From a virus (taxonomy: Duplodnaviria > Heunggongvirae > Uroviricota > Caudoviricetes): DNA of 64,000 bases. Made by a program: the position numbers and the translations under genes. Numbering within the stretch: the stretch's first letter is position 1; each line of letters opens with the position of its first letter. The notes under the pieces are model-generated. The model had not been told where the DNA came from and ran no database searches. It saw nothing but the letters and a program-made list of their open reading frames with translations. The stretch lies in the IMG/VR virus record IMGVR_UViG_3300044858_003749; one strand, 5' to 3'. This document shows, one piece after another, positions 33,732-57,553 of the stretch.

Positions 33732-33732
33732 C

Positions 33733-40737: not shown

Positions 40738-41106
40738 ATGAGGAGTAAGGGTAACCCCATGAAAACTCTCAATGAAAAAGAACAAAAAGTTTTGCTTTTG
40801 GCTCTTAATCACCATCAAAAATACCATAATGACATTATCTCTCAATATTTTTTTGAGGATGATAAAAACTCGGTTGTATCGGAATCTTTTGAAAGTCTTG
40901 GGACAATTAACGATTTACACAATACTTTTTCGGGTGATTCAAATCTTCATCTTTTGAGATCAGGAGATTTAGAAAACATTGAAGCCGCTTTTACTCGTTC
41001 TGACGAGATTTATAATAATGGTGATAATGTAATCATGAAGGCCAGTCTTTATTTGGCTCTTATTGATACTATTAAGGCAATTCTGAGAAAAGATGATTGT
41101 ACTTGA
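40738..41106 (+). CDS. hypothetical protein
   Basis: 122-aa ORF. Confidence 0.35.
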   Translation: MRSKGNPMKTLNEKEQKVLLLALNHHQKYHNDIISQYFFEDDKNSVVSESFESLGTINDLHNTFSGDSNLHLLRSGDLENIEAAFTRSDEIYNNGDNVIMKASLYLALIDTIKAILRKDDCT

Positions 41107-41536
41107 ATCTTATTTGAAACCTCGCATTTTGGACCAAGCAATCGCTGTGGCTATGGTAAGTAACGGATCTAAAAGAATTGGTGCGATTCTTCTTAAAAAG
41201 AATAAGATTGTCGCGGCAGCCTGTAACAATTACGACAAATCAGATGCGTTTCAATTTAGGGCTTCCCAAAGAGCCTCTATCATATACAATAAACCAGAAT
41301 ATTCAAAACGTGTTTACGGGCACGCTGAAACCCTGGCTCTTAAAAAAATTAACGATGGTGACGCTGATACGATTGTAGTTTGCAGACTTTCTGGTAAACA
41401 CAATTCTAAAAAACTGAGATTGGCTAGACCATGTAGAATTTGTTCTCATCTTATTCAAAATTTCTACCCCTCAATTCGGTATATCCATTATTCCACCGAA
41501 AGAGGATTTTTCTACGAGACTTGGGGTCTTATCTAA
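41093..41536 (+). CDS. cytidine/deoxycytidylate-deaminase-fold zinc enzyme (dCMP deaminase or TadA-like)
   Basis: Zinc-binding signature 'HAE' followed by 'PCRICSHL' (PCxxC). Confidence 0.6.
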   Translation: MIVLESYLKPRILDQAIAVAMVSNGSKRIGAILLKKNKIVAAACNNYDKSDAFQFRASQRASIIYNKPEYSKRVYGHAETLALKKINDGDADTIVVCRLSGKHNSKKLRLARPCRICSHLIQNFYPSIRYIHYSTERGFFYETWGLI

Positions 41537-41802
41537 TGAAAAAACTTTCTCTTAAAGAAACTCACACTCTTTTGAAGAAATACAATCATGTTATTTTTGA
41601 CGAAGAAACCTCTGGGTTAAATTCAAAACTTAATGACGATGGGTTAATTATTACGTTAAAAAGTGGTAACAATAAGAGTGTTATGTTGTTTCCCCATGAA
41701 AAAAATGAGTCTGTTGAGATCACTAAAACCACAGTAACTCTTTATGATAGTATGGGTTGGGTTCATAATTTCATCCCCCTTATGAATGCCGACTTGATTT
41801 GA
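41536..41802 (+). CDS. hypothetical protein
   Basis: ATG overlapping the deaminase stop (track ORF 41440..41802). Confidence 0.35.
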   Translation: MKKLSLKETHTLLKKYNHVIFDEETSGLNSKLNDDGLIITLKSGNNKSVMLFPHEKNESVEITKTTVTLYDSMGWVHNFIPLMNADLI

Positions 41803-41808
41803 ATTATT

Positions 41809-42135
41809 ATGAGTAATTATGAGCTAGCGAGGAGACGTAACACTCCACCAGAAGCATTATCACGTCTGGCTAATGATAAGGATTCTTATGTTCGTCGTGG
41901 GGTTGCATGGAATCCCAAGACCCCTCTAGAAACCTTAGATCGTCTGGCTAATGATAAGGATTCTTGGGTTCGTGGTGAGGTTGCATTTAATCCCAACACA
42001 CCACCAGAAGTTTTAGAACGTCTGGCTAATGACGAGTATCGGTATGTTCGTCGTTTGGTTGCCAAAAATCCCAACACGCCACAATACATTAGAACATATC
42101 TTAAAATTACCGAGGTTTTGAATTATTATGAGTAA
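41809..42135 (+). CDS. LRV/HEAT-like repeat protein (member J)
   Basis: Starts 'MSNYELARRRNTPPE'. 3 repeats plus cap. Confidence 0.7.
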   Translation: MSNYELARRRNTPPEALSRLANDKDSYVRRGVAWNPKTPLETLDRLANDKDSWVRGEVAFNPNTPPEVLERLANDEYRYVRRLVAKNPNTPQYIRTYLKITEVLNYYE

Positions 42136-42454
42136 TTATGAGCTAGCAGATAATCCCAACACCCCACCAGAAACATTAGAAAGTCTAGCGAATGACGATA
42201 ATTGGTATGTTCGTAGCTGTGTGGCATTTAATCCCAACACACCACCAGAAGCTTTAGAACGTCTGGCTGATGATGAGGATTTAAATGTTCGTTATTATGT
42301 TGCAAGAAATCCCAACACATTACCAGAAACCTTAGCTCGTCTGGCTAAGGATGAGGATTGTCGTGTTCGTCGTTGGGTTGCAAGAAATCCTAACACACCA
42401 CAATACATCAAAGATTATCTTAAAATCAAGGGGTTTTTGGGTTGTTATGAGTAA
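42128..42454 (+). CDS. LRV/HEAT-like repeat protein (member K)
   Basis: Overlaps the 'YYE*' of member J. 3 repeats. Confidence 0.7.
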   Translation: MSNYELADNPNTPPETLESLANDDNWYVRSCVAFNPNTPPEALERLADDEDLNVRYYVARNPNTLPETLARLAKDEDCRVRRWVARNPNTPQYIKDYLKIKGFLGCYE

Positions 42455-42626
42455 TATTGAACTAGCAGGAAATCCCAACACACCACCAGAAACCTTAGAT
42501 CTTCTGGCTAATGATAATATTTGGAATGTTCGTTATTTGGTTGCAAAAAATCCCAACACTCCACAATACATTAGAACATACCTTAAACTTCAAAGGACGA
42601 TTGGTGGACTGTCCACAAGAAGTTGA
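42447..42626 (+). CDS. LRV/HEAT-like repeat protein (member L, single repeat, 59 aa)
   Basis: Starts 'MSNIELAGNPNTPPETLD'. ATG at 42447 (track ORF 42351..42626). Confidence 0.55.
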   Translation: MSNIELAGNPNTPPETLDLLANDNIWNVRYLVAKNPNTPQYIRTYLKLQRTIGGLSTRS

Positions 42627-42651
42627 CAAACCAGGGATCTTGTGGTACTAT
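42623..42651 (+). promoter_or_regulatory. consensus sigma70-like promoter TTGACA-17nt-TACTAT (TGTGG upstream of -10)
   Basis: TTGACA at 42623-28, a 17-nt spacer, then TACTAT at 42646-51. Confidence 0.45.
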
Positions 42652-42699
42652 TATTGAGTAGTGGGGAGTTACTCTTTTTATGATAACTTGAGATTTATG

Positions 42700-42790
42700 T
42701 TATGGGCTCTGCCCCGGCAGTGGCCTTCTAAGCCATTCCATTAAACGCCGGAAGGACGGTACGATGTTCGATTCATCCAGAGCCTGCTAA
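42700..42790 (+). ncRNA. candidate structured small RNA (tRNA-like 3' half with a T-arm-like GTTCGATTC)
   Basis: GGCTCTG (42705-11) pairs with CAGAGCC (42778-84). An internal T-arm-like hairpin 'GATG-TTCGATT-CATC' and the pairs CCGGC/GCCGG and CCTTC/GAAGG are present. No ORF, and it lies about 50 nt downstream of the promoter. Confidence 0.3.
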
Positions 42791-43153
42791 ATGAAATAAC
42801 TTATAGTTATTTACTAATCACACCTCATTGGAGATATGATGCTCGGTTATTTAAAAAATGAGTTGAAGGCCAATCCTTAAACTGTCACACTAGACTTTGT
42901 TACAGCTAGACTTCGTGTTATGCTTTACTTGCGAAACAATTCAACCCACCATTAATAAAAAATGATTGTTCGTTTTCTTGGAATTACAGTTGGTATTTCT
43001 ATCATTCTGTTTATTCTTTTTCTGAGAGGACTTCCGGTTCTTATTCTGTTGAAAGCAGTTCCTCTCATTGTCCTACTCCTGATTGGAGCTGCTTTCATCT
43101 ATGCCGGAGTTACCTCCGATTAATCCTGTTCTTTATTCTTTTTTAAAAACATT

Positions 43154-43963
43154 ATGTCTCTCGTAAAAGTTGGTATTGGTGCTGGAGCACTTCTTGGAGT
43201 TATTCTGCTTACTGCTGGACAATTCACAACTATTAACACTGGTGAAAATGGATTATACATCGGATTTGATGGCCAGGTAAAAAATGAGATCCTTACTCCT
43301 GGTATCAAATATGATGGTCTAGGATCTATTAAAGTCTTCAACACCCGTAAGATTACTGTTACAGCAAATGATCTTCGTCCTAAAACAAAGGACAATACGA
43401 TTATGAAGGAGATGGATGTGACTGTAACTTACAGTATCAATCCTACTTCTCTGTATGAGTTCTATACGAATTATGATCTTACTAATCACGCAATTGGTGA
43501 TGGTGGACAAGTTCAATTGATGTCTAGTTATATCTCTCGTCTGATTACATCCTCTGTTAATCAGTCGGTTGACGAGTTTCCTGCTCTTGCAGTAAATTCA
43601 AACTTGGAACAAATCCAAGACACTATTAAGAATAATCTTTCAGGTGCACTCAAGAAGAACGGTCTGGAAGGTAAGATTACTATTGATTCAATTATCGTAG
43701 GTAAAGCCGACCTTCCCGATGACCTTGTTGCTTCTGTGAATCGTGTGGTTGCCGCCCAGTCTGCTAACAAAGAGCAACAAGTAAGGACTGAAACTGCTCA
43801 GTTGAAAGCGGAGGAAAACAAAGCTCTAGCATCTACAGTATCGTCACAATCACTTGAGTACCAAAGGAACGAAATTCTTCGTGCCGCGATGGAGAACGGA
43901 AGCATCCAGAAAATGCTTATTGTGAATGGTACGCCTCTTCAGTTCTTCCCAACTGACAAATAA
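43154..43963 (+). CDS. SPFH/Band-7 (prohibitin/HflC-like) membrane protein
   Basis: N-terminal TM segment, then 'TINTGENGLYIGFDGQV...YDGLGSIKVFNTRKITV', typical of the SPFH fold. Confidence 0.6.
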   Translation: MSLVKVGIGAGALLGVILLTAGQFTTINTGENGLYIGFDGQVKNEILTPGIKYDGLGSIKVFNTRKITVTANDLRPKTKDNTIMKEMDVTVTYSINPTSLYEFYTNYDLTNHAIGDGGQVQLMSSYISRLITSSVNQSVDEFPALAVNSNLEQIQDTIKNNLSGALKKNGLEGKITIDSIIVGKADLPDDLVASVNRVVAAQSANKEQQVRTETAQLKAEENKALASTVSSQSLEYQRNEILRAAMENGSIQKMLIVNGTPLQFFPTDK

Positions 43964-43968
43964 AAACT

Positions 43969-44005
43969 GATTGGTGATGATGGTTAAAATAATACTAACC
44001 ATCAT
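43969..44005 (+). terminator. strong hairpin terminator (14-bp perfect stem)
   Basis: GGTGATGATGGTTA, a 9-nt loop, then TAACCATCATCACC, followed by a T-rich tract. Confidence 0.55.
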
Positions 44006-44034
44006 CACCCTTACGTTTCATAATTATTTTTATA

Positions 44035-44421
44035 ATGAACTTCTTCAATAAAAACAAAAATAAAGATAAAGACACAACTCCAGAATGGGTCAAAGGTGTA
44101 TGCGTGTTTCTTGAAATTCAAGAAATCCCCGAGTGTAAAGATTGGGGTGTCGTTAATTCCTGTATTCTAATGGTAATTATGTCAGAATTTCCCGGACAAT
44201 ACATTGAAGATCATTGGGTTAATTTAAGAAATGGGAGTTCTTTATTAACCACAAGGTCATTTTTAGCTAGAGTCTTTATGACTGTTGCTACGAAAAAGTA
44301 CAAAAAAGAATCATCTATTGAAAATAATCTTTTCAATGTTGGGTTAGAATATAGCCGACTCCGGGATAACTTCAGAAACAAATTCTACGAGGCAGTAAAC
44401 TATGGAAACACACGAGATTGA
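44035..44421 (+). CDS. hypothetical protein
   Basis: 128-aa ORF. Confidence 0.35.
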   Translation: MNFFNKNKNKDKDTTPEWVKGVCVFLEIQEIPECKDWGVVNSCILMVIMSEFPGQYIEDHWVNLRNGSSLLTTRSFLARVFMTVATKKYKKESSIENNLFNVGLEYSRLRDNFRNKFYEAVNYGNTRD

Positions 44422-44821
44422 AAATAAATTTTGGGACCTTGAATCTAATCTAAATGAGATTGAATCCAATTATTTGGATCTTGAAGAGCAGTTAGCACAT
44501 TTTGTTACAGATTCGCTTCTACTTATTGAAAACTTAGATCTTGAATCTTTGGCAATACCAATATTCGCTCAGAGTCTTATTATTCGTAATTACCGAGATT
44601 ACAAATATCAAGATTTATTAAAAAAATTACTGGTATCTAAAAATTTCACACCAGGCCTAATATACCGCACAAGAGAAATTTTTACAGAAAAAGAGTTTGA
44701 ACCTTTTTTACAATACTTACTACAAAATCCAAATTTAGACCAGTATGCAAGAGAATACTACACCAACCTAAAAAAATCTTATGACCGAAGACTTACTAGG
44801 GAACAAACTAAAAAAGCTTGA
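44402..44821 (+). CDS. hypothetical protein
   Basis: 139-aa ORF. Confidence 0.35.
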   Translation: METHEIENKFWDLESNLNEIESNYLDLEEQLAHFVTDSLLLIENLDLESLAIPIFAQSLIIRNYRDYKYQDLLKKLLVSKNFTPGLIYRTREIFTEKEFEPFLQYLLQNPNLDQYAREYYTNLKKSYDRRLTREQTKKA

Positions 44822-45551
44822 GCAACTGGAGGCTGGGCGTTATGCCGATCCTTTTCTTCCACTCATGGCCAGAATTGATGGTAAGTGCTTCAGTAATTTC
44901 ACTAGAAGTCTAAAACGTCCTTATGACGAGAGATTTATTCGGCTTATGATAGCAACGACAAAATATCTTGTTGAAGAAAGTGAGGCTATTTTAGGTTATT
45001 GCCAATCTGATGAAATTACTCTTTATTGGTACTTAGATAAAGAAAACTTTTCCAATAGAGAATTCTGGTTTCGTGGTAAGTTTCAGAAATTAACTTCTGT
45101 CTTAGCCTCAACTGCTAGCTCTTATTTTTGTGGTAATCTCGCACATTATTTACCAGAAAAGACTGGTAACTATCCAACCTTTGATACAAGAGTTTGGAGT
45201 GTTCCCGATTTGGAATGCGTTTATGAGAATTTTCTATGGCGGTTTAAGGATGCGAGAAAAAATTCTGTATCCATGTATGCAAGACATTTCTTTTCACCAA
45301 ACCAGCTTTTTAAAAAGTCCTGTGAAGAAATGAAAGAAATGTTAGCGGTTATTCGTAGGCCGTGGGAAGAATTACCTAAATTCTTTACCGATGGGACGTA
45401 TATTAAAAGACAAAAATTCTTATTGTCTCCTTATGATCCTAGATGGAATGACGTTCCCTCTCAATACCGGCCAACAAAACCTGTTGAGCGTACATTGGTT
45501 TCCGTTTGGGAACCAGAGACAACGGTATCACTTGATTGGTTCACTTATTAA
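44781..45551 (+). CDS. Thg1-like tRNA(His) guanylyltransferase / 3'-5' nucleotidyltransferase
   Basis: Motif 'LMARIDGKCFSNFT...KRPYDERF...YCQSDEITLYW' matches the Thg1 pattern (vRiDG.nF, kP.DeR, sDEis). Confidence 0.65.
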   Translation: MTEDLLGNKLKKLEQLEAGRYADPFLPLMARIDGKCFSNFTRSLKRPYDERFIRLMIATTKYLVEESEAILGYCQSDEITLYWYLDKENFSNREFWFRGKFQKLTSVLASTASSYFCGNLAHYLPEKTGNYPTFDTRVWSVPDLECVYENFLWRFKDARKNSVSMYARHFFSPNQLFKKSCEEMKEMLAVIRRPWEELPKFFTDGTYIKRQKFLLSPYDPRWNDVPSQYRPTKPVERTLVSVWEPETTVSLDWFTY

Positions 45552-45598
45552 ACTGGCACATCAGAAACCCGCTGACGCCTCTTGTGGTCTACAATAAT
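45549..45598 (+). repeat. 50-nt intergenic repeat, copy 1 (AAACTGGCAC...TTGTGGTCTACAATAATC)
   Basis: Near-identical to 45884-45933, with 2 mismatches. Confidence 0.6.
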
Positions 45599-45622
45599 CT
45601 CACATTCAAAAAGGAAAAATTG

Positions 45623-45871
45623 ATGGCCAGTGTTGATGCAAAAGATTTGATGAATACACTCAGTAATATCTGGGTTGTAGAGTTCCGTGAGAGTGAGCTT
45701 GGTTGGGGTAGTCATACTTGGACTTTAATGTTTGACAATTATACAGAAGCTTCAAATGTAGTAAAAAACACTAACAAGGAAAATATTTCTAACACAGCCC
45801 CTGATTATTATATTCAGGCAAACCAACCAAAATTGTTTGCAGATTATTATAAATTCAAACTGAGTTGCTAA
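45623..45871 (+). CDS. hypothetical protein
   Basis: ATG with RBS AAGGAAA (track ORF 45536..45871). Confidence 0.35.
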   Translation: MASVDAKDLMNTLSNIWVVEFRESELGWGSHTWTLMFDNYTEASNVVKNTNKENISNTAPDYYIQANQPKLFADYYKFKLSC

Positions 45872-45883
45872 GACCAATTCTTA

Positions 45884-45933
45884 AACTGGCACACCAGAAA
45901 CCCGCTGACGCCTCTTGTGGTCTACAATAATCT
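45884..45933 (+). repeat. 50-nt intergenic repeat, copy 2
   Basis: See copy 1 at 45549-45598. Confidence 0.6.
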
Positions 45934-46131
45934 TACACAAACAGTCAACACCATGCACACCATAGAACTTTTTACTTTTAAAGACGCTATACATCTTTTT
46001 AACATAGAAATGCAGATTGTTCCCATTGCTGGAGATTATATTAAGTATAATTACATCTTATACAAAGTTATTGAAAGAGGTTTTGAAGTTTTTCCGGCTA
46101 CAACTATTCGTCTTTACGTAGAAGAAACCAA

Positions 46132-46749
46132 ATGAATTACACCGAAGAACAAGTTAAAGAAATCGTCAGAAATGTCATTTCTGAGATGCAATCTGTAAAT
46201 GTTAAGGATCTTACACTTTACCAAAAAAGGGGTGTTGCAAGAAATCCCAATACAGCACCAGAAGTCTTAGACCGTCTGGCTAATGATAAGGATTCTTATG
46301 TTCGTTGGCAGGTTGCAGAAAATCCCAACACACCACCAGAGACCTTAGAACGTCTGGCTAATGATGACGATTATTGTGTTCGTTGGAGTGTTGCATTTAA
46401 TCCCAACACACCACCAGAAACATTAGCTCGTCTAGCTAATGATGTGGATTATTGTGTTCGTACGCCGGTTGCATTTAATCCCAACACACCACCAGAAGTT
46501 TTAGAACGTCTGGCTAATGATAACGATTCTGTGGTTCGTTATTATGTTGCAAGAAATCCCAACACATTAACAGAAACTTTAGAACGTTTGGCTAATGATA
46601 AGAGTTCTTCTGTTCGTGAATGTGTTGTACAAAATCCTAACTACAAACGGAAATCCAACAATAAGATCACTATTGAGCTTACAGAAGAACAGTTGTCTCA
46701 ATTACGAAAATGTGCAGACATGTTCTCTGGTCTTTTAGGATCTGTATAA
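46132..46749 (+). CDS. LRV/HEAT-like repeat protein (member M, 5 repeats, distinct N- and C-termini)
   Basis: Repeats 'NPNTPPETLERLANDDDYCVRWSVAF'. The C-terminus 'NPNYKRK...' is shared with member N. Confidence 0.7.
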   Translation: MNYTEEQVKEIVRNVISEMQSVNVKDLTLYQKRGVARNPNTAPEVLDRLANDKDSYVRWQVAENPNTPPETLERLANDDDYCVRWSVAFNPNTPPETLARLANDVDYCVRTPVAFNPNTPPEVLERLANDNDSVVRYYVARNPNTLTETLERLANDKSSSVRECVVQNPNYKRKSNNKITIELTEEQLSQLRKCADMFSGLLGSV

Positions 46750-46776
46750 CCTTACTACCATCGTATAAAAATTATT

Positions 46777-47031
46777 ATGGAAAAACTAAAATTCGTTGAA
46801 ACCATTCTTGATCGGCTACAAGAATATTCTATATCTCATCCACAACATGATACAGATGATGTGCTTAGCAAAGCACGAAAAGAACTTGAAAAACTTAATA
46901 AAAATTATGTTTTGATTGAAAACACTGAACATATTAAACTTTTGGACAATCAACGCACTCTTTATGCTCTTCATCGTGGTGGTGTTGATAATTGGGAATG
47001 GTATGACGAGTCTTTGAGCAGTTTGGACTGA
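46777..47031 (+). CDS. hypothetical protein
   Basis: 84-aa ORF. Confidence 0.35.
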   Translation: MEKLKFVETILDRLQEYSISHPQHDTDDVLSKARKELEKLNKNYVLIENTEHIKLLDNQRTLYALHRGGVDNWEWYDESLSSLD

Positions 47032-47202
47032 CACTTTCAGAACCGTCCACAACCGCTTGACAATCCAGCCAATCCATGGTAGATTGAACAAGTTCAAAGA
47101 TGAGGCAGCAATTCCTTTCTTCTGCAAATAGAAACAAAACTCATCTTGTATTAAGTTGATTCCGCATCAACAACAGCAAAAACATCAACTTGGAGATTAA
47201 TT

Positions 47203-48666
47203 ATGACTTTTATGCAAGCTCTTTCTTCTGAAATGAACGTAACCACCACCGCTAATGGTGCCAAGGCTTACGAATCAACCGAAAATGAATGTCTTGATCT
47301 TTTCGGTTCAATTGGTGCCTGTCGCAATAATATGTCTTTGGCTGAACGGTTGTTCTTTAATGCTTATAACCAACACCCAGAAACTGCCGCTAGAATTCTC
47401 TTCTACTCCCGCGATATTCGTGGAGCTAGTCAAGGTGAGCGAGCCGTATTTCGGGCTCTTATGCCGAAGTTCGCACAAAAGAATCCGACTGTTGCAAAAA
47501 AACTTGTTTCTTTGATTCCTTATTATGGCCGATGGGATGATCTTCTATGTCTAGAAGGAACTCCTGTTTGGACAGAGGCTCTAGAAACTATTAAAGTTCA
47601 ACTTAATGCAGATCTTAATAACAATAAGGTTTCTCTGGCAGCAAAATGGATGCCTAGTATCAATGCTTCAAGCAAAGAAAGCAAGCGTCTTGGTCGGATG
47701 ATTGCGAATCATATGGGTTGGTCTGAACGACAGTATCGTAAGAATCTTTCTACTCTTCGGGCGAAAATTAACATTGTTGAAACTCCGATGTGTGCCAAAG
47801 AGTGGGGACTTATCAATTATGAGAATCTTCCTTCTCGTGCGGCGATGATGTACCGCAAAGCCTTTAAAAAGCACGATGAGACCCGATATAATAACTATCT
47901 CTCTAGTGTAGAGAAAGGTGAAGCGAAGATCAATGCTGGGACTCTGTTTCCTTATGATATTGTGAGCAAGTACCTCTACAAAGGTGCTCATAATGATAAA
48001 ACTCTTGAGCTTCAATGGGATGCTCTTCCTAATTATATGGAAGGACTAGAGTTTAATGGTCTTGTTGTTGCAGACGTTTCAGGATCAATGACTTGCGCTG
48101 CTGGTATGCCATTGGCCGTTTCTATCTCACTTGCGATGTATATTGCCGAAAGAAATCCTTCAAGCGTTTGGAAAAATAAGTTCATCACTTTTTCTCAAAA
48201 TCCAAAACTTCAATCTATTCTTGGTAATAATATTGAAGAGAAAATTAGGTATCTCCAACGTGCTGAATGGGGAGTTAATACTGATCTAATGGCAGTATTC
48301 CGTACTGTTCTTGATGCTGCAACCAATAATAATGTTGCACAATCAGATATGCCCCAGAAGCTAATTATCGTTTCCGATATGCAATTTGATAAGGCTTGTG
48401 CCTCAAATAAGCGAACTAATTTTGAGCAGATTCAGAAACTTTATCGTAAGGCTGGTTATGAAATGCCAGAACTCGTATTCTGGAATGTAAATGCTGGTGC
48501 AAATGTTCCAATTCAGGCCGATGATAATGGAACCTGTCTTGTTTCGGGATGTAGTCCTGCTATTCTAAAGAGTGTTCTTAGTGGTAAAATCGTTTCTCCT
48601 ATTGATGTTATGATGGAAAGTCTTTATGTGGAACGATACGCTCCTATTGGTGAAGCGTTTGCATAA
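47203..48666 (+). CDS. von Willebrand factor A (vWA) domain protein, DUF2828-like
   Basis: MIDAS motif 'LVVADVSGSM'. The N-terminal 'TTANGAKAYESTENECLDLFGSIGACR' block resembles phage/eukaryotic vWA-containing DUF2828 proteins. Confidence 0.55.
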   Translation: MTFMQALSSEMNVTTTANGAKAYESTENECLDLFGSIGACRNNMSLAERLFFNAYNQHPETAARILFYSRDIRGASQGERAVFRALMPKFAQKNPTVAKKLVSLIPYYGRWDDLLCLEGTPVWTEALETIKVQLNADLNNNKVSLAAKWMPSINASSKESKRLGRMIANHMGWSERQYRKNLSTLRAKINIVETPMCAKEWGLINYENLPSRAAMMYRKAFKKHDETRYNNYLSSVEKGEAKINAGTLFPYDIVSKYLYKGAHNDKTLELQWDALPNYMEGLEFNGLVVADVSGSMTCAAGMPLAVSISLAMYIAERNPSSVWKNKFITFSQNPKLQSILGNNIEEKIRYLQRAEWGVNTDLMAVFRTVLDAATNNNVAQSDMPQKLIIVSDMQFDKACASNKRTNFEQIQKLYRKAGYEMPELVFWNVNAGANVPIQADDNGTCLVSGCSPAILKSVLSGKIVSPIDVMMESLYVERYAPIGEAFA

Positions 48667-48734
48667 TTAAATTTCTTAAGATGGTTCAGCAATTCTCATA
48701 TGTTTTGGGTACATAAAAGACCATCTTGTTTAAA

Positions 48735-48848
48735 GAGCGAGTAGCTCAGGGGTAGAGCAACGTAATAACAAATCTCGTTTGAGATTTTAACAGCAATCAA
48801 AACCGCATGTTAAGCCGTAGGCCCCAGGTTCAAATCCTGGCTCGCTCA
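48735..48848 (+). tRNA. tRNA-like gene with ~40-nt insertion in the anticodon region (class II-like; anticodon unresolved)
   Basis: Acceptor GAGCGAG/CTCGCTC, D-arm GCTC-AGGGGTA-GAGC, T-arm CCAGG-TTCAAAT-CCTGG. It is 114 nt long. A stem AACGT/ATGTT flanks a 43-nt loop plus insertion. A possible short variable hairpin is GCC-GTA-GGC. Confidence 0.45.
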
Positions 48849-48958
48849 TCAGATGATTCAGCAATTATCTCTTCGCTAGGAAAACAAAATCATCTAGTTA
48901 AACAATTTTATCAATTCTCAAAAAATGTTCAATTTCGTTATTAATACTAAATAACCAA

Positions 48959-49032
48959 CAGCGGGCGAGTGTAACGGTAGTCACGTCGGGCTCATAACCC
49001 GGAGGAATATGGGTTCAATTCCCAGGTCCGCC
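48959..49032 (+). tRNA. tRNA-Met (CAT), initiator-like
   Basis: Anticodon loop CTCATAA. Three consecutive G:C pairs close the anticodon stem (GGG/CCC). There is a 1:72 A·C mismatch. The T-loop is TTCAATT. Confidence 0.6.
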
Positions 49033-49098
49033 ATCAGATGATTCAGCAATTTCAAAACTTCTTATTGGTTAGAAAAACAAAAATCATCTAGTCTTATT

Positions 49099-49219
49099 AC
49101 GAGAGTAGCCCAATTGGTTGAGGTGAGCGTAAGAAACAAAAATGATCTAGACAGATCATTCAGCAATAATACACTTTCTAAGGAACGCTTTGATGTCAGT
49201 TCAAATCTGACCTCTCGTA
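49099..49219 (+). tRNA. tRNA-like gene with ~47-nt insertion in the anticodon loop (anticodon unresolved)
   Basis: Acceptor ACGAGAG/CTCTCGT, T-arm GTCAG-TTCAAAT-CTGAC. A perfect anticodon stem AGCGT/ACGCT encloses 54 nt. It is 121 nt long. Confidence 0.45.
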
Positions 49220-49335
49220 TTTGGTAGTCGCTAGACACATAGCCTAGAAAGACGCCATATTTTCATTATAAATACAACCAACAGACTTTAACACTACAAA
49301 ACGATCACTTAGTCTGTGTGATCTGAAAGAAACAA

Positions 49336-50040
49336 ATGATGTACTCAAACAACTTTGCTGCGGCAATTAAGGTAAACGGTAAAATTCTCCGTGAGTTCGG
49401 TGATACTGTTTATCTTCCATTCGGCTCTGAATATGAAATCAGACTGAAGAACTTACATTCTCAAAGAGCCAAAGTCAATATTGATATTGACGGTTCTACT
49501 GTTACAGGGAATGGTCTTATTATCCGACCCCAACAGACTGTAGATCTAGAAAGATTCATTCGTGATAATCTAAACGAAGGTAATAAATTCAAGTTTATTG
49601 AGCGAACAGATAAGATTGAAAATCATCGCGGAATTAAACTTGAAGATGGATTGATTACGATTCGTTTTGAGTTTGAAATTACTCTTAATAATTTTGCTAT
49701 TTCAACTCCATTAACTTATAGATCTTATGGTGGAGGTCTTTATAACTCTTCTAATGTGGTTTCTAATAATATTGTAAGCGTTCCCGTAAATGATACAGGA
49801 ATCACTGTAGAAGGATCCAAAAGCGATCAATCGTTTGGTGCGACAAGTTGGTTTGGATCTATTGGTGGGACTCATGTTTTGAACATTAAACTTTTAGGTG
49901 AAACTGAAGACAATAAAAAAATTAGAGAACCAGTTACAGTTAAAACTAAATTAGAATGTAAAACTTGTGGTACTATTAACAGTGTAACATCCAAGTTCTG
50001 TTCTGAATGTGGAACATCTTTACACATCGTAGCCGCCTGA
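49336..50040 (+). CDS. hypothetical protein with C-terminal zinc-ribbon
   Basis: 234 aa, ending in 'CKTCGTINSVTSKFCSECGTSL' (CxxC...CxxC). Confidence 0.4.
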   Translation: MMYSNNFAAAIKVNGKILREFGDTVYLPFGSEYEIRLKNLHSQRAKVNIDIDGSTVTGNGLIIRPQQTVDLERFIRDNLNEGNKFKFIERTDKIENHRGIKLEDGLITIRFEFEITLNNFAISTPLTYRSYGGGLYNSSNVVSNNIVSVPVNDTGITVEGSKSDQSFGATSWFGSIGGTHVLNIKLLGETEDNKKIREPVTVKTKLECKTCGTINSVTSKFCSECGTSLHIVAA

Positions 50041-51320: not shown

Positions 51321-51838
51321 CTGAACAAGAGCAAAAACTATTAAACAAGTTTCTTTCCTCTATTGAAGAAGACGAAAAGTTCTTCAAAGAGATTATGAAC
51401 CGAACAGATGAAGACGCAAGACTTCTTCAATGGATTGTCAATAATAATATCAATCCTTACGGTGTTTTTCCTTATTATATTGCTGGCAGTCTTTCCGAAT
51501 TACAATCCTTTGTTGCCATCTACATTAAGATGACGTATCAAAGAAAGCACTGTGAAATTAATTACGTCAACGTTGAAAGAACAAGTAGCTCACATGATCA
51601 TGTTGATAACCTAGGACCGAGAGTAGTTTTTGTTGGTAAATGGGAAGATGATTTTCATGCGCTAGTTAAAAAAGAATTAAATCTACCCGACGATGAGCTA
51701 CCATGGGAATCATACACTTATGACTTTGACATCTTAGAAAACGTAGACGCCTTTATTGAAACATACAATAGGGTTGAAGATTATCACAAGAATCGTTATG
51801 AAGAAAACAGTAAGCTTGCGGATAGGTGGTTATCATGA
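51317..51838 (+). CDS. hypothetical protein
   Basis: 173-aa ORF. Confidence 0.35.
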
Positions 51839-53313
51839 ATGAAGAAACATCACAATTTTTATCAGCCAGGTTGGATAAGATTTCAGAACTACAGAAAATA
51901 GGGCAAGTTGCATATGCTAATTCTTTTCACCCTACAATTAAAGCATTAGAATTACATAAGAATTATTTTAATCTGGAAAATGGTTCTGAATGTGATGATA
52001 ATGTTGTTATAGCTGGTCGTATTATCGCAAGAAGAGTATTCGGTAAGTTGTCATTTTTTACTCTTTCCGATGACAGTGGAACAATTCAGCTTTATATTGA
52101 GAACGCCATCGTTGGTTCCGATATTGTTTCCTTAACCGATGTCGGCGACTGGATCGGCGCCACCGGCACCCTGCGGCGCACCGACCGGGGCGAGCTTTCG
52201 GTCAAGGTGCGCGACTGGACGATGCTCAGCAAGTCGCTTCAGCCCCTGCCCGACAAGTGGCATGGCCTGGCGGACGTGGAGAAGCGCTACCGGCAGCGCT
52301 ATCTCGATCTGATCGTCTCCCCCCACACCCGCGAAACTTTCCGGCGACGTGCCATTTTGATTAGAACTATTCGCAATTGGCTTGACTCGCGGGAATTTTT
52401 GGAGATTGAAACTCCTATTCTACAAACCGAAGTTGGCGGAGCCGAGGCCAAACCTTTCTCAACATATCATAACACTCTAGATCTATCATTAACTCTAAGA
52501 ATTGCGACCGAGTTGCACCTTAAGAGGATGATTGTTGGTGGTTTTGAAAGAGTTTATGAGTTGGGTCGTATATTTCGTAATGAAGGTCTAAGCACCCGCC
52601 ATAATCCAGAGTTTACAACCGTTGAGATTTATCAGGCATATGCAGATTATAATGATATGATGATTTTAACAGAAAATCTCATATCTACTTGCGCAGAGAC
52701 AGTTTGTGGTTCTACTGTAATAGTTTATCAAGATGAAAAAATTGATCTAACTCCTCCTTGGAATAAATGTACAATGCACGAATTGGTTTTTGAGCATACT
52801 GGTCTTGATTTTCATCAATTTTCGTCAAGAACCGATGCCGCTAATGCTATGGAAACTATTGGATTGGTTGTTCCTGATAGTGCCGATTCCGTTGGTCGGT
52901 TATTAAACGAAGCCTTTGAACAAAGAGTTGAAAAACAGCTCATTCAACCGACTTTTGTTTTAGATTATCCTGTTGAAATTTCTCCACTGGCCCGTTCTCA
53001 TAGAGAAAAACCGGAATTGGTTGAAAGATTTGAATTATTCATCTTTGGTCGTGAAATTGCCAATGCCTTTAGCGAACTCACCGATCCTTTAGAACAGAGA
53101 AAAAGATTAGAAGAACAACAAACCCGCCGCAATAATGGCGATCAAGAGGCTCACACTATTGATGAAGACTTTTTAAACGCACTTGAAATTGGAATGCCGC
53201 CAACCGGAGGACTAGGTATTGGTATAGACAGATTGACAATGTTACTTACGGATAGTCCGTCTATTCGTGATGTTATCGCTTTTCCTTTAATGCGCCCAGA
53301 GGACAAAACATGA
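51826..53313 (+). CDS. lysS: lysyl-tRNA synthetase (class II)
   Basis: Class II motifs '[23 protein letters not shown]' and '[15 protein letters not shown]'. N-terminal OB anticodon-binding region. Contains the GC-rich patch at 52136-52353. Confidence 0.85.
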
Positions 53314-55559: not shown

Positions 55560-55631
55560 CTGGAAATAAGTCAGTGGTAGACGGTCTAGTTTGGGGCTAG
55601 AAAGACGTTGGTTCGAGTCCAACTTTTCAGA
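55560..55631 (+). tRNA. tRNA-Pro (TGG)
   Basis: Acceptor CTGGAAA/TTTTCAG (one G·U pair), anticodon arm TCTAG-TTTGGGG-CTAGA, T-arm GTTGG-TTCGAGT-CCAAC. 72 nt. Confidence 0.7.
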
Positions 55632-55701: not shown

Positions 55702-56760
55702 ATGAAAAAATACGATGCGGTGGTTTTCATCGGCAGGTTTCAACCTTTCCATAACGCTCATTTTGATATTATCAAAAAAGCTTATGAGCTAACTGATTAT
55801 GTAATTCTTATCGCGGGTTCTCAGTATCAACCACCTAGCTATAAGAATCCATTTCAGGCTTTAACTTTTGACGGTTATTTTGATTCAATTGGAAAAACCA
55901 TTGATAATTATCTTAGAGTTAACTTTGAGGATTATTATGACGAAGACCGTAACTATGAGTTCTCGTTTTGTTTTCAACGAGATATTTACGGTGATAATCT
56001 CTGGTGCAAAAGTGTACAGGAAAAAGTATCAGAATTATTCTTAGGTCAAGAAGCTGAAATAGCCATTATTGGTTGTAATAAGGATGAAAGTTCTTATTAC
56101 TTAAATATGTTCCCTCAGTGGGATCTTATTGAGGTTCCTCTGGATCAAAACCTTAGTGCTACACAGATCAGAGAACTTTATTTCGTTGAAGAACCAAATA
56201 TGAGTTTTCTTCAAGGTGTTGTATCGTCTGAGGTTTTTAATTATCTTGACGAACACAAAAATACCGAATGGCACAATAATATCGTAAACGAACGAAATTT
56301 TATTGAAAAATACAAAGCCCAATATGCTTCTTTCCCATATCCACCAACATTCGTTACTGTAGATTCTGTAGTATTTCAATCCGGTCATGTTCTCGTTGTT
56401 CGGAGAAATGCTTATCCTGGTAAAGGTCTTATTGCTCTTCCTGGTGGATTCTTAGACGCTAATAGTGATGCCTCTTTGGAAGATGCTATGATTAGAGAAC
56501 TGAGAGAGGAAACAGGGCTTAAAGTGCCAACTCCGGTTCTCAAGGGATCTATTAAAGATGTTAAAGTTTTTGATTCTCTTTATAGAAGCTCTCGTGGACG
56601 GACTATTACTCATGCTCATAACATTGTATTGTCTGATGGAGAACTACCTAGAGTCAAAGGTGATTCTGATGCTGATAAGGCTTTCTGGTTACCATTCAGC
56701 CAACTTAAATCAGAGCAATTTTTTGAAGACCATTATCAAATTATCAATTATTTTCTATGA
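55702..56760 (+). CDS. natV: bifunctional NMN adenylyltransferase / Nudix hydrolase (NatV-type)
   Basis: N-terminal nucleotidyltransferase 'GRFQPFHNAH' (HxGH-type). C-terminal Nudix box 'GGFLDANSDASLEDAMIRELREETGL'. Confidence 0.8.
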   Translation: MKKYDAVVFIGRFQPFHNAHFDIIKKAYELTDYVILIAGSQYQPPSYKNPFQALTFDGYFDSIGKTIDNYLRVNFEDYYDEDRNYEFSFCFQRDIYGDNLWCKSVQEKVSELFLGQEAEIAIIGCNKDESSYYLNMFPQWDLIEVPLDQNLSATQIRELYFVEEPNMSFLQGVVSSEVFNYLDEHKNTEWHNNIVNERNFIEKYKAQYASFPYPPTFVTVDSVVFQSGHVLVVRRNAYPGKGLIALPGGFLDANSDASLEDAMIRELREETGLKVPTPVLKGSIKDVKVFDSLYRSSRGRTITHAHNIVLSDGELPRVKGDSDADKAFWLPFSQLKSEQFFEDHYQIINYFL

Positions 56761-56957
56761 TTATGAATCAAGTGCAACTGAGTAAAATGTCAAGAGAAGA
56801 AAAACTTAAGGCATTGGCTTTAATTGATAAAAACATTGAGACAACAAAACTTAAATTAAGCCAATTACATCATGAAGCCTATAAGTTGCAATATGAATTA
56901 GGTTATTACGCTAAAAAAGAAATCCTTTATGGAATTAAATATGATGTTCAAAATTAA
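56757..56957 (+). CDS. hypothetical small protein
   Basis: 66-aa ORF. Confidence 0.3.
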   Translation: MIMNQVQLSKMSREEKLKALALIDKNIETTKLKLSQLHHEAYKLQYELGYYAKKEILYGIKYDVQN

Positions 56958-57477
56958 TAAAAATCGAAACTTCCTAGAAGACTATAAGAAATATTATTTC
57001 TTTTATGATACTCCATTGTCAAATTGGGCAGGTTATTCTTTTGTTGATACAACAACTGGAGTTTCTTACAATTGCTCAGAACAGTTTATGATGCACAAGA
57101 AGGCCCTACTTTTTTCTGATTATAATACTGCCGGCAAGATCATGAATAAAGAATACCCAGGAGATCAAAAAGCCTTGGGTAGAATGGTGGCAGGCTTTGA
57201 TGTTAGCATTTGGAATGAATATGCAAGAGATCTTGTGTATGAAGGATGTTATTATAAGTTTACCCAAAATAAGGAAGCTTATGAATATCTTATGGGGACA
57301 GAAGGTTATCTTCTAGTAGAGGCATCACCAACAGATACTATTTGGGGTATTGGACTTGGAGGTTATGATGCAGATAATCAAGATCCTAAAAATTGGAGAG
57401 GAACTAACTGGTTGGGTGAAGTTCTTACACAACTACGAGAAGATTTGAAAGATAACCCAGAGTTAGTTTTATTCTAG
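56929..57477 (+). CDS. NADAR domain protein (YbiA-like, DUF1768)
   Basis: 'SNWAGYSF...YNCSEQFMMHKKALLF...TIWGIGLGG...NWRGTNWLGEVL' follows the NADAR pattern. Confidence 0.6.
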   Translation: MELNMMFKINKNRNFLEDYKKYYFFYDTPLSNWAGYSFVDTTTGVSYNCSEQFMMHKKALLFSDYNTAGKIMNKEYPGDQKALGRMVAGFDVSIWNEYARDLVYEGCYYKFTQNKEAYEYLMGTEGYLLVEASPTDTIWGIGLGGYDADNQDPKNWRGTNWLGEVLTQLREDLKDNPELVLF

Positions 57478-57501
57478 TCAGATGTAAAGACTTTAAAACA
57501 T

Positions 57502-57524: not shown

Positions 57525-57553
57525 TTATCCACTATCATTTTAAGGAGTTTAAA

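What the first reader, a model, noticed from the sequence alone, without database searches (positions are those of the whole stretch)
48679..49168. Repeated hairpin-'TCAGCAAT' RNA element with compensatory stem changes around and within the tRNA genes
There are five copies in about 500 bp. Three are intergenic: 48679-48727 upstream of the first tRNA, 48851-48896 and 49035-49094. These have the form stem-TCAGCAAT-loop-'AAAACAAAATC'-stem. Two lie inside the tRNA insertions, at 48772-48797 and 49139-49168. The stems differ between copies but stay complementary (AGATGGT/ACCATCT, AGATGAT/ATCATCT, AATGATCT/AGATCATT). This is covariation, evidence for a functional RNA structure rather than a protein site. 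Candidate roles are a tRNA-processing or endonuclease recognition signal, a small mobile repeat, or a promoter/terminator bookend of the tRNA operon.
Basis: seen in the sequence. Interest (0 to 1): 0.65.

Follow-up and report, generated by a model that had tools for sequence, protein, structure and literature searches.

The report
Y-RNA-like module of phage Ro-like protein
The repeated hairpins are real and are most likely the RNA partner (a Y-RNA-type binding module) of a Ro60-like protein encoded next door; the same module occurs as small free RNAs between tRNAs, in the protein's own mRNA leader, and grafted into the anticodon arm of tRNAs.

Summary
The window holds seven copies, not five. 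Three are free hairpins among the tRNA genes, two lie in the 5' leader of ORF 47203-48666, and two sit inside tRNA genes. The consensus is N-A-G-N-U-N-N-N | (U)CAGCAAU | variable | 7-8 nt of A/C | N'N'N'-A-N'-C-U-N' | G. Across 79 distinct relatives 99% of stem cells pair, and 5 of 8 pairs show compensatory changes. The copies inside tRNAs are exact circular permutations: the same invariant base pairs, with the helix capped by a small loop that begins with the conserved G. ORF 47203-48666 (DUF2828+DUF7788) models as a Ro60-type HEAT ring plus vWA domain; its top ten PDB fold matches are all Ro60. The same module lies beside, and co-oriented with, DUF2828 genes in 41/49 viral and 59/80 bacterial loci (14-fold enrichment). 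In Treponema and a mycobacteriophage it closes a YrlA-type, permuted tRNA-like RNA. No Rfam family covers it. Best reading: a Y-RNA-like ligand and autoregulatory site of a Ro-like protein, and a new variant of the Ro60/Y RNA theme. Binding is inferred, not shown. Whether the tRNA inserts are also spliced out remains open.

The parts
47057..47085 (+). Sigma70-like promoter (TTGACA-17-TGnTAGATT) of the operon; the transcript would start a few nt before leader element 1
   Evidence: 10 of 12 matches, TG extension; relatives have TTGACA-N17-TATAAT at the equivalent place (L004 5990-6035; L001)
47097..47148 (+). Leader element 1: AAGATGAG | GCAGCAAT | variable | AAACAAAA | CTCATCTT | G
   Evidence: model R1 hit at 36 bits, E 2e-5; sequence
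47153..47192 (+). Leader element 2: AAGTTGAT | TCCGCATC | ... | CAAAAAC | ATCAACTT | G. Its conserved 3' G is the first base of the Shine-Dalgarno GGAG (47192-47195); the ATG is at 47203
   Evidence: R1 hit at 25 bits, E 5e-3; an equivalent element abuts the start codon in about 20 related loci
47203..48666 (+). Ro60-like protein gene (DUF2828 + DUF7788; HEAT-repeat ring plus vWA domain), the proposed binding partner
   Evidence: Pfam; PHROG 850 'RNA-binding protein'; AF2 model pLDDT 75; top 10 Foldseek PDB hits are all Ro60, E 1e-8 to 5e-5, full length
48678..48728 (+). Free element A: AAGATGGT | TCAGCAAT | variable hairpin | CATAAAAG | ACCATCTT | G
   Evidence: R1 54.8 bits; fold
48735..48848 (+). 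tRNA gene interrupted in the 5' strand of the anticodon stem, between positions 29 and 30. Removing the insert gives ACGGC/GCCGU and loop AUGUUAA (anticodon GUU)
   Evidence: Rfam tRNA 50.7 bits; ARAGORN -i
48763..48804 (+). Embedded, circularly permuted module 1: A-rich lead TAATAAC | AAATCTC | GTTT | GAGATTT | TAA-CAGCAAT | CAAAACC
48850..48897 (+). Free element B; it starts 2 nt after the discriminator of the upstream tRNA
   Evidence: R1 55.8 bits
48960..49033 (+). Ordinary tRNA-Met (CAT), flanked by elements B and C
49035..49091 (+). Free element C; it starts 2 nt after tRNA-Met and ends 7-8 nt before the next tRNA
   Evidence: R1 59.7 bits
49099..49219 (+). tRNA gene interrupted between positions 31 and 32. 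Removing the insert gives AGCGU/ACGCU and loop CUAAGGA (anticodon AAG). An uninterrupted homologue with the same loop is at L006 747-821
   Evidence: Rfam tRNA 37.3 bits
49131..49177 (+). Embedded, circularly permuted module 2: AAGAAACAAAA | ATGATCT | AGAC | AGATCAT | TCAGCAAT | AATACACTTT

Best explanation
The element is a modular, two-stranded RNA motif. It consists of a 7-8 bp helix with three fixed base pairs (A-U, G-C, U-A), a fixed G just 3' of the helix, and an internal loop made of (U)CAGCAAU on one strand and 7-8 A/C residues on the other.

I propose it is the binding site of the Ro60-like protein encoded at 47203-48666. That makes it the counterpart of the Ro-binding stem of Y RNAs. 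The operon, transcribed from the promoter at 47057, supplies the module in three settings:

1. Free RNAs of about 50-60 nt between the tRNAs. These would probably be released by the enzymes that trim tRNA ends, RNase Z at the upstream tRNA and RNase P at the downstream one. They would be minimal Y RNAs, comparable to YrlB.
2. Two copies in the mRNA leader. The second overlaps the ribosome-binding site, so excess protein could shut off its own translation.
3. Copies grafted into the anticodon arm of otherwise complete tRNAs. This tethers the protein to an L-shaped tRNA body, as YrlA does, but with the chain break moved from the protein-binding helix to the acceptor end.

Shown here: the structure, its covariation, the permutation, the Ro60-like fold, and the wide, co-oriented co-occurrence with this gene family. 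Inferred: physical binding, release by RNase Z and RNase P, autoregulation, and the downstream role. That role is presumably recruiting or gating host exoribonucleases or tRNA-handling enzymes during infection, possibly in counter-defence, as reported for the Bas63 homologue.
For: Structure:
- 99.1% pairing and 5 of 8 compensatory pairs over 79 distinct free copies. 95.2% pairing and 5 of 7 compensatory pairs over 24 embedded copies, with the same invariant pairs and a loop that begins with the conserved G.
- Neighbouring elements carry different stems, so pairing is within an element and not across the tRNA.

Protein:
- The top ten PDB fold matches are all Ro60/Rsr/phage Ro60 over about 515 aligned columns. 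After these come only vWA domains.
- Homologues in mycobacteriophages are annotated 'Ro-like RNA binding protein'.

Linkage:
- In 64 kb the model finds the element only in this operon; the next best hit scores 12 bits.
- The Ro-like gene is the only protein gene conserved next to it.
- An element abuts the start codon in about 20 related loci.
- A pattern scan finds the module beside the gene in 41/49 viral and 59/80 bacterial loci of 36-83% protein identity. Density is 1.16/kb near the gene against 0.081/kb elsewhere, the strand split is 291 plus to 16 minus, and at least 40 different stem sequences occur.

Link to Y RNAs:
- In Treponema zioleckii (L236 2144-2252) the module closes an RNA with T-arm, closed acceptor-like stem and D-arm.
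- In Mycobacterium phage DirkDirk the RNA after the gene hits Rfam YrlA (39.8 bits, E 2e-6) and carries GCAGCAAT next to its closing stem.
- The order D-arm, A-rich strand, helix, CAGCAA strand, variable/T-arm is the same there and in the window's chimeric tRNAs.

Precedent:
- Y RNAs lie within 4 kb of, and on the same strand as, Ro60 genes, and one of them mimics tRNA (PMC4201824).
- phiLo Ro60 binds stem-bulge-stem Yrl RNAs (PMC12135203).
- Bas63 gp130 is Ro60-like and lies upstream of tRNAs (bioRxiv 10.1101/2024.10.10.617714).
Against: - No binding data exist; the link rests on association and analogy.
- The protein resembles Ro60 only in predicted fold (TM 0.33-0.45, model pLDDT 75). It matches neither Pfam TROVE nor Ro60 sequences, even with a profile.
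- The motif differs from the published Ro-binding motifs GNCGAAN0-1G and GGUCCGA. Rfam YrlA scores only 17.5 bits here against a threshold of 69.
- Some elements lie in other tRNA arrays 4-6 kb from the gene, or in loci where the gene was not within the DNA held (11 of 31 loci).
- In 18 of 31 interrupted tRNAs, precise removal of the insert restores a canonical anticodon arm with U33 and a purine at 37 that matches position 36. That is what an intron would look like.
- Predicted folding energies of the free copies are only modestly better than shuffles (z -1.3 to -2.5).
Confidence: 0.7

Rival explanations
1. The inserts are true tRNA introns, removed by a protein endonuclease plus a ligase. 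The module would be the recognition handle for that machinery, and the intergenic copies would be cleavage signals that separate the tRNAs. The spliced products would be ordinary decoding tRNAs. This could coexist with Ro-like protein binding.
For: - Inserts always lie in the anticodon arm, at 26/27, 28/29, 29/30, 31/32 or about 38/39.
- Precise removal restores a 5-bp stem and a 7-nt loop with U33 and R37 in 18 of 31 cases. In the cases examined by hand, nt 37 follows nt 36 (U36 with A37, G36 with G37).
- An uninterrupted homologue of the window's third tRNA has the identical loop CTAAGGA (L006 747-821).
Against: - 13 of 31 cannot be restored. They have C37, loops of 6, 8 or 9 nt, or 4/5-bp stems. 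One orthologue (L102 8793) has lost U33 and its T-arm yet keeps the module.
- By inspection there is no bulge-helix-bulge geometry at the junctions.
- No splicing endonuclease or RtcB-type ligase was found among 26 window ORFs scanned, and no protein other than the Ro-like one is conserved nearby.
- Splicing does not explain the two copies in the mRNA leader. It also does not explain YrlA-type RNAs in which the module is the closing stem.
- Protein-dependent tRNA splicing is not known in bacteria or phages (my own knowledge).
Confidence: 0.17
2. Generic processing or stability hairpins of the tRNA operon, unrelated to the Ro-like protein. They could be RNase III or RNase E sites, or blocks to 3' exonucleases.
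For: Free copies start 1-3 nt after a tRNA discriminator and often end a few nt before the next tRNA, including in tRNA arrays some kb from the Ro-like gene.
Against: - Sequence-specific invariants (AG..U, CAGCAA, CU-N-G) and an A/C-only strand are not needed for a mere hairpin.
- Copies occur in the mRNA leader and inside tRNAs.
- The module follows DUF2828 genes into bacteria where no tRNA array is present, for example L225 and L230.
Confidence: 0.07
3. A small selfish mobile DNA repeat (MITE- or REP-like) that has spread through the tRNA region and into tRNA genes.
For: There are several copies per genome, insertions into at least four different tRNA lineages at different positions, and a palindromic core.
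Against: - All copies are on the transcribed strand (291 to 16).
- Positions are conserved between phages of 64-83% protein identity.
- Stems covary instead of being copied.
- Embedded copies are circular permutations, which transposition does not produce.
- No target duplications were seen on reading the flanks.
Confidence: 0.04
4. Transcription signals (terminators, or promoters specific to the phage) that bracket the tRNA genes.
For: Intergenic position and a hairpin shape.
Against: - No terminator-like site lies in 46700-49400, against 2.1 expected by chance. The stems are AT-rich and are followed by AGU, not a U-run.
- The elements lie downstream of a separate sigma70-like promoter.
- Copies sit inside tRNA genes.
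Confidence: 0.02

Closest known systems
Bacterial and phage YrlA / YrlB Y RNAs bound by Ro60 (Rsr) (Chen et al. 2014, PMC4201824; Rfam RF02553)
   Same: - Encoded next to, and co-oriented with, a Ro60-type gene, several per locus.
- A helix plus a conserved internal-loop motif serves as the protein-binding module.
[quoted passage not shown]
- The order D-arm, module, variable/T-arm is identical.
- Relatives of this locus in Treponema and in Mycobacterium phage DirkDirk have the classical YrlA topology with this same module.
   Different: - The partner protein belongs to DUF2828/DUF7788 and is not recognised as TROVE by sequence.
- The motif is (U)CAGCAAU plus an A/C strand, not GNCGAAN0-1G.
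- In the window the tRNA part has normal topology with free acceptor ends, and the module is capped: a circular permutation of YrlA.
- An anticodon hairpin is retained.
- The free versions are only about 50 nt and are embedded in tRNA operons.
- Copies occur in the mRNA leader.
- Rfam YrlA scores 17.5 bits against a threshold of 69.
Thermus phage phiLo Ro60 with Yrl1/Yrl2 (PMC12135203) and metazoan Y RNAs
   Same: A stem, large internal loop, stem architecture with a short conserved motif on the 5' strand; phage-encoded; the best structural match of the protein model is phiLo Ro60 (9kop, E 1e-8).
   Different: The motif there is CGAA or GGUCCGA; the RNAs lie upstream of the gene, are about 100 nt long, and have no link to tRNA genes.
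Bas63 gp130 (Felix O1-like phage; PhageMaP preprint 10.1101/2024.10.10.617714)
   Same: The Felix O1-like phages carry homologues of this protein (about 37% identity), to which Bas63 gp130 presumably belongs. It is Ro60-like by structure and lies next to a tRNA array, and the authors guessed that some of those 'tRNAs' are Y RNAs. gp130 counters the Ppl defence system.
   Different: No RNA partner or motif was identified there. I did not look for the module in Felix O1-like phages beyond noting that in Citrobacter phage Moogle the tRNA array is convergent with the gene.
Archaeal and eukaryal tRNA introns with bulge-helix-bulge motifs, including non-canonical positions and permuted tRNAs
   Same: Short inserts at several positions of the anticodon arm whose removal restores a tRNA; related structured motifs also occur in intergenic processing sites.
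   Different: No BHB geometry and no splicing endonuclease gene were seen; many members cannot be restored; the motif also occurs in mRNA leaders and as the closing stem of YrlA-type RNAs.

Membership tests
Y RNA / YrlA-type Ro60-associated RNA | Encoded within a few kb of a Ro60-family gene, on the same strand | tested here: met
   All 7 window copies lie within 110 nt upstream to 530 nt downstream of ORF 47203-48666, on the + strand. 100 of 129 related loci have a copy beside the gene, with 14-fold enrichment and a 291:16 strand bias.
Y RNA / YrlA-type Ro60-associated RNA | Partner protein is a Ro60 (TROVE HEAT ring plus vWA) protein | tested here: inconclusive
   Fold: the top 10 PDB matches are all Ro60, E 1e-8 to 5e-5, TM 0.33-0.45. 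Sequence: no Pfam TROVE match and no PDB Ro60 hit with the sequence or a profile.
Y RNA / YrlA-type Ro60-associated RNA | Helix with the conserved Ro-binding motif GNCGAAN0-1G (bacteria) or GGUCCGA (animals) | tested here: not met
   The consensus is NAGNUNNN-(U)CAGCAAU, with C12, G14 and C15 invariant and A13 in 78 of 79 copies. It is similar in layout but a different sequence.
Y RNA / YrlA-type Ro60-associated RNA | At least one RNA per locus has a tRNA-like domain (D-arm, T-arm, acceptor-like stem) | tested here: met
   The two module-bearing genes score 50.7 and 37.3 bits on Rfam tRNA. The topology is that of a normal tRNA, not the permuted YrlA order.
Y RNA / YrlA-type Ro60-associated RNA | Matches the Rfam YrlA (RF02553) or Y_RNA covariance model at the gathering score | tested here: not met
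   YrlA scores 17.5 bits against 69, driven by the D-arm; there is no Y_RNA hit at E <= 10. A relative, DirkDirk L242 3038-3146, reaches 39.8 bits, E 2e-6.
Y RNA / YrlA-type Ro60-associated RNA | Physically bound by the Ro60 protein | not testable with these tools
   Needs EMSA, co-immunoprecipitation or a structure.
Protein-spliced tRNA intron (bulge-helix-bulge type) | BHB motif (3-nt bulge, 4-bp helix, 3-nt bulge) spanning both splice sites | tested here: not met
   Inspection of the junctions ACG|UAAUAAC...CAAAACC|GC and AGCGU|AAG...CUUU|CUAAGGA shows none. The 3' exon runs straight into the anticodon hairpin. No formal BHB search was run.
Protein-spliced tRNA intron (bulge-helix-bulge type) | Precise excision restores a canonical tRNA | tested here: inconclusive
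   Both window genes and 18 of 31 in all are restorable; 13 of 31 are not.
Protein-spliced tRNA intron (bulge-helix-bulge type) | Cognate splicing endonuclease and ligase are available | tested here: inconclusive
   None among 26 window ORFs scanned with Pfam. Only part of the genome is in the window, and the host is unknown.
Group I self-splicing tRNA intron | More than about 200 nt with the conserved catalytic core | tested here: not met
   The inserts are 42 and 47 nt; no Rfam intron family hit.
Intrinsic terminator | GC-rich hairpin followed by a U-run | tested here: not met
   No site in 46700-49400. The stems are AT-rich and are followed by (A/U)G.
REP/MITE-like dispersed repeat | Dispersed in both orientations, independent of gene context | tested here: not met
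   No model hit elsewhere in 64 kb; strand bias 291:16.

The most novel reading that the evidence does not exclude
The module-bearing tRNAs could be a new functional class in one of two ways.

(a) They are genuine protein-spliced tRNA introns in a phage or bacterial system, with the Ro-like ribonucleoprotein marking the excision site.

(b) They are unspliced, Ro-tethered tRNA decoys or adaptors whose anticodon loop is the variable specificity element. In favour of (b), the same chimeric body carries CCA/GCA/GUA, AGG/GUU/GAG/CCA or UGU/UGG in close relatives. Such RNAs could bait or neutralise anticodon-specific host defence nucleases or recruit specific tRNA enzymes.

Either way, a widespread and undescribed RNA family partners DUF2828 proteins in hundreds of phages and many bacteria.
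Probability: 0.25. Interest if true: 0.9.

Novelty: new variant of a known kind. Interest (0 to 1): 0.72.

Why it matters
DUF2828 proteins occur in about 700 sequenced phage records: Felix O1-like, KVP40-like, Listeria, Staphylococcus, Campylobacter, Bacillus and mycobacteriophages. They also occur in many bacteria. One phage homologue counters a bacterial defence system, but no RNA partner had been defined.

This analysis supplies a concrete, testable candidate: a compact motif that can be synthesised, mutated and searched for. It also shows that the Ro60/Y RNA principle (ring protein, helix-plus-loop handle, tRNA mimic) extends to a second, sequence-unrelated-looking protein family that uses a different RNA code.

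The circular permutation between free and tRNA-embedded copies delimits the minimal binding module without any experiment. The leader copies predict autoregulation.

Interrupted but otherwise complete tRNAs in phages raise an open question: are they spliced, decoys or tethers? That bears on how phages protect or manipulate the tRNA pool.

Tried and rejected
- Rfam scans at a permissive E-value around the locus, and at gathering score on 20 related loci: only tRNA and tmRNA hits, plus a chance-level YrlA hit.
- Sequence and profile searches of the protein against PDB sequences: nothing. Only the fold comparison was informative.
- Model R1, built on the short cyanophage form, found nothing in the distant DUF2828 loci. 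The module there has a much longer interior or a 6-bp stem, and it was found only by reading the flanks and by a pattern scan.
- The zinc-ribbon ORF 49336-50040 was considered as a possible nuclease partner. It is present only in the nearest relatives, has no family or PDB match, and was dropped.
- Pairing of elements across a tRNA (3' arm of one with the 5' arm of the next) was considered. It is possible around tRNA-Met, where both stems are identical, but was rejected as the general structure because neighbouring elements usually have different stems.
- K-turn, loop E and GNRA-receptor motifs were considered by eye and rejected: the A/C strand has no G for sheared G-A pairs.
- CRISPR-repeat mimicry was rejected: the interior is variable, and the only CRISPR-DR hits are at chance level.
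- The exact 16-mer scan of viral contigs returned many chance matches. Only 31 of the 80 loci searched with the model were confirmed.
- Literature searches for DUF2828, cyanophage Ro60, phage B3 and 'Ro-like' found no description of this RNA. The 2020 review of bacterial Ro60 and the supplements of Chen 2014 were not available.
Full report
**The observation**

- Three intergenic hairpins have the form AG-N5 | TCAGCAAT | variable | A-rich | N5'-CT. They lie at 48678-48728, 48850-48897 and 49035-49091.
- Two copies lie inside tRNA genes at 48763-48804 and 49131-49177.
- Exact TCAGCAAT occurs four times in 482 nt, where about three are expected in the whole window on both strands.
- ARAGORN in intron mode and Rfam show that 48735-48848 and 49099-49219 are tRNA genes carrying 42- and 47-nt inserts in the anticodon arm. 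They score 50.7 and 37.3 bits against a threshold of 29. An ordinary tRNA-Met lies between them.

**Relatives, consensus and covariation**

The nearest sequenced phages are Synechococcus phages B3 and B23 (Kyanoviridae, about 69% DNA identity). They and six metagenomic viral contigs carry the same elements with freely varying but complementary stems. Examples are AGATGGT/ACCATCT, AGGTGGT/ACCACCT, AGATCAG/CTGATCT, AGTTAAT/ATTAACT, AGGTCTC/GAGACCT, AGATAGT/ACTATCT and AGATTAT/ATAATCT. Adjacent elements usually have different stems, so the pairing is within an element and not across the intervening tRNA.

I built a covariance model from 17 copies. In the window it recovers the three free copies at 55-60 bits. 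Nothing else in 64 kb scores above 12 bits.

Over 91 hits (79 distinct) from 28 sources, 99.1% of 632 stem cells pair. Five of eight pairs show compensatory changes, in 93 cells against 23.6 +/- 3.3 in shuffles (0 of 500 shuffles reach this). Sliding the partner strand drops pairing to 17-40%. This alignment is fitted to the model, which favours pairing; the slid controls and the raw listing show the effect is not an artefact.

The consensus is N-A-G-a-U-g-a-u | U-C-A-G-C-A-A-U-u | variable | 7-8 nt of A or C with essentially no G | stem' | C-U-N-G. Invariant positions are A4, G5, U7, C12, G14 and C15, with A13 in 78 of 79 copies. On the 3' side A18' and U21' are invariant, and C20' and G23' are each present in 78 of 79 copies.

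**The embedded copies are circular permutations**

In about 30 distinct interrupted tRNAs from these phages the insert reads: A-rich lead | arm | 3-6-nt loop | arm' | N0-4 | C(A/U/C)GCA(A/U)(U/C).

Twenty-four of them were aligned. They show 95.2% pairing and five of seven compensatory pairs. The same three fixed base pairs occur as in the free form, and the terminal loop begins with the conserved G.

So the free form is open at the AG/CU end and closed by a variable apical hairpin. The embedded form is closed at the AG/CU end by a tiny loop, and the tRNA body replaces the apical hairpin. This delimits the functional core: helix, 3' G, CAGCAA strand and A/C strand. It is the behaviour expected of a protein- or RNA-docking module. 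It is not expected of a terminator or a transposon end.

**The neighbouring gene**

ORF 47203-48666 matches Pfam DUF2828 and DUF7788 and PHROG 850 'RNA-binding protein'. Sequence and profile searches against PDB sequences find nothing.

An AlphaFold2 model (pLDDT 75) gives Ro60 proteins as its ten best Foldseek PDB matches, aligned over about 515 columns. These include Thermus phage phiLo Ro60, D. radiodurans Rsr, and Xenopus and human Ro60, at E 1e-8 to 5e-5 and TM 0.33-0.45. After them come only isolated vWA domains.

Homologues occur in 694 phage records. Those in mycobacteriophages are annotated 'Ro-like RNA binding protein'. A preprint reports that a protein of the Felix O1-like phage Bas63, gp130, is Ro60-like, sits upstream of tRNAs and counters the Ppl defence system. 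Its authors guessed that some of those tRNAs are Y RNAs. Felix O1-like phages carry homologues of the window's protein.

Ro60 proteins bind Y RNAs encoded within 4 kb on the same strand, and at least one of these mimics tRNA (Chen et al. 2014).

**Operon anatomy**

- A sigma70-like promoter (TTGACA-17-TGnTAGATT, 47057-47085) precedes leader element 1 (47097-47148).
- Leader element 2 follows at 47153-47192. Its conserved 3' G is the first base of the Shine-Dalgarno GGAG, and the ATG is at 47203.
- An element that abuts the start codon is present in about 20 related loci.
- After the gene come element A, interrupted tRNA 1, element B, tRNA-Met, element C and interrupted tRNA 3.
- The free elements that follow a tRNA begin 1-3 nt after its discriminator; none of these tRNA genes encodes CCA. 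They often end 2-9 nt before the next tRNA. The tRNA end-trimming enzymes would therefore release them as RNAs of about 50-60 nt. This is an inference.
- No terminator-like site lies in the region.
- No protein gene other than the Ro-like one is conserved beside the elements.

**Generality of the link**

Reading the flanks of distant DUF2828 genes (36-45% identity) shows the same module with other stems.

- In 5' leaders: GAGACGC-TAACAGCAAAC...GCGTCTC (L008), AGAATGT-TAACAGCAA...ACATTCT (about 25 loci) and GAATGC-TAACAGCAAC...GCATTC (L040).
- As the closing stem of 120-190-nt RNAs just after the gene: AAGATGY-ATTCTGCAAYC ... RYATCTTG in L009-L016.

A scan of 80 bacterial genome loci gave the same picture in Firmicutes, Treponema, Chloroflexi, Selenomonas and a cyanobacterium.

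A single pattern was then applied to all loci. It requires a stem of 6-8 bp starting AG, then N0-4, C[AUC]GCAA, a partner arm ending CU, and a G within 2 nt. With it, 41 of 49 viral and 59 of 80 bacterial loci have a copy beside the gene on the same strand. Density is 1.16 per kb near the gene against 0.081 per kb elsewhere. The strand split is 291 plus to 16 minus. At least 40 different stems occur.

Two cases tie the module to classical Y RNAs.

- Treponema zioleckii (L236). The stem AAGGCAC/GTGCCTTG, with TAACAGCAAA, encloses a T-arm, a closed acceptor-like stem and a D-arm, which is the YrlA topology. A second copy encloses a whole tRNA, and a third encloses only a T-arm.
- Mycobacterium phage DirkDirk. 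Three RNAs with (A/G)CAGCAAT next to a closing stem follow the gene. The middle one matches Rfam YrlA at 39.8 bits, E 2e-6, which is below the gathering score.

The connectivity D-arm, A-rich strand, helix, CAGCAA strand, variable/T-arm is the same in these RNAs and in the window's chimeric tRNAs. Only the position of the chain break differs.

Rfam has no family for the module: 20 loci scanned at gathering score gave only tRNA and tmRNA hits. Chen et al. searched only genomes annotated with TROVE proteins, and their phage example, ET08, is I believe of another phage type. The literature searches I could run found no description of this RNA.

**Are the inserts introns?**

For:
- The inserts split the 5' strand of the anticodon stem or lie next to it.
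- Precise removal restores a canonical arm in both window genes and in 18 of 31 cases overall.
- In the cases examined by hand, nt 37 matches nt 36.
- An uninterrupted homologue of tRNA 3 has the identical loop.

Against:
- 13 of 31 cannot be restored. They have C37, loops of 6, 8 or 9 nt, or stems with a mismatch.
- An orthologue of tRNA 3 (L102) has lost U33 and the T-arm but keeps the module.
- There is no bulge-helix-bulge geometry and no conserved nuclease or ligase gene.
- Splicing does not explain the leader copies or the YrlA-type RNAs.

In addition, the same chimeric body carries different anticodons in close relatives: CCA/GCA/GUA, AGG/GUU/GAG/CCA and UGU/UGG. That suggests the loop is a fast-evolving specificity element. 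I rate splicing at about 0.17, and it is not exclusive of protein binding.

**Verdict**

The best-supported explanation, at confidence 0.7, is a Y-RNA-type binding module for a Ro60-like (DUF2828) protein. It is used as free small RNAs, as an autoregulatory leader and as a graft on tRNA bodies.

It works like YrlA and YrlB but fails their motif and covariance-model tests, and it partners a protein family that is Ro60-like only by fold. I therefore class it as a new variant of a known kind.

Binding, RNA ends, autoregulation and the biological role are inferred and need the experiments listed under next steps.

Noticed in passing
window 51826-53313 and 60887-62236: The phage encodes a full-length lysyl-tRNA synthetase (NCBIfam lysS, 688 bits) and a cysteinyl-tRNA synthetase (Pfam tRNA-synt_1e, 407 bits).
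   Followed up: partly
window 43154-43963 and 44781-45551; L242 1-575: A Band-7/SPFH protein and a Thg1-like tRNA 5'-end repair enzyme lie a few kb upstream of the Ro-like gene. Mycobacterium phage DirkDirk also has a band-7-like gene just upstream of its Ro-like gene, which suggests a conserved neighbourhood.
   Followed up: no
window 55702-59869: An NAD salvage cluster: NMNAT-Nudix (55702-56760), NADAR (56929-57477) and NAMPT (57518-59869). A tRNA-Pro(TGG) lies at 55560-55631.
   Followed up: no
window about 32300-46550, coding strand +: Many ORFs made of LRV/HEAT repeats share a roughly 37-nt repeated coding unit (reverse complement ATCATTAGCCAGACGTTCTAAGGTTTCTGGTGGT). It turned up as false positives in the hairpin scan.
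   Followed up: no
L006 2528-2779: A related cyanophage contig carries a cyanobacterial-type two-piece (permuted) tmRNA gene (Rfam cyano_tmRNA, 116 bits) just upstream of its Ro-like gene.
   Followed up: no
L004 6172-6288, L006 4662-4779, L007 4663-4782; L080 3728, L098 6057, L092 6393: Near-identical module-bearing tRNA bodies carry different anticodons in close relatives (CCA/GCA/GUA; AGG/GAG/CCA). This is rapid anticodon switching on a constant scaffold.
   Followed up: partly
L009 3428-, L010 4517-4639, L013 4471-4657, L014 4482-4635, L015 4442-4591, L016 4433-4578: In a clade with Bacteroidota-like promoters, a 120-190-nt RNA follows the Ro-like gene. It is closed by the same module and contains a conserved pseudoknot-like CUUC..GGG..GAAG..CCCC segment, and it ends in its own terminator.
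   Followed up: partly
L236 2262-2380: In Treponema zioleckii one copy of the module encloses an entire normal tRNA plus a hairpin. The tRNA therefore sits where the variable apical hairpin is in the phage elements.
   Followed up: no
window 49336-50040; L002 3799-4365 and 4523-5221: An ORF with a C-terminal zinc ribbon and no other recognisable domain follows the RNA cluster and is duplicated in the nearest relative. It is absent from more distant relatives.
   Followed up: partly
window 49099-49219; L006 747-821; L007 238-312: These tRNAs carry Leu-type anticodons (AAG, GAG) but have a short variable arm, so their amino-acid identity is unclear.
   Followed up: no
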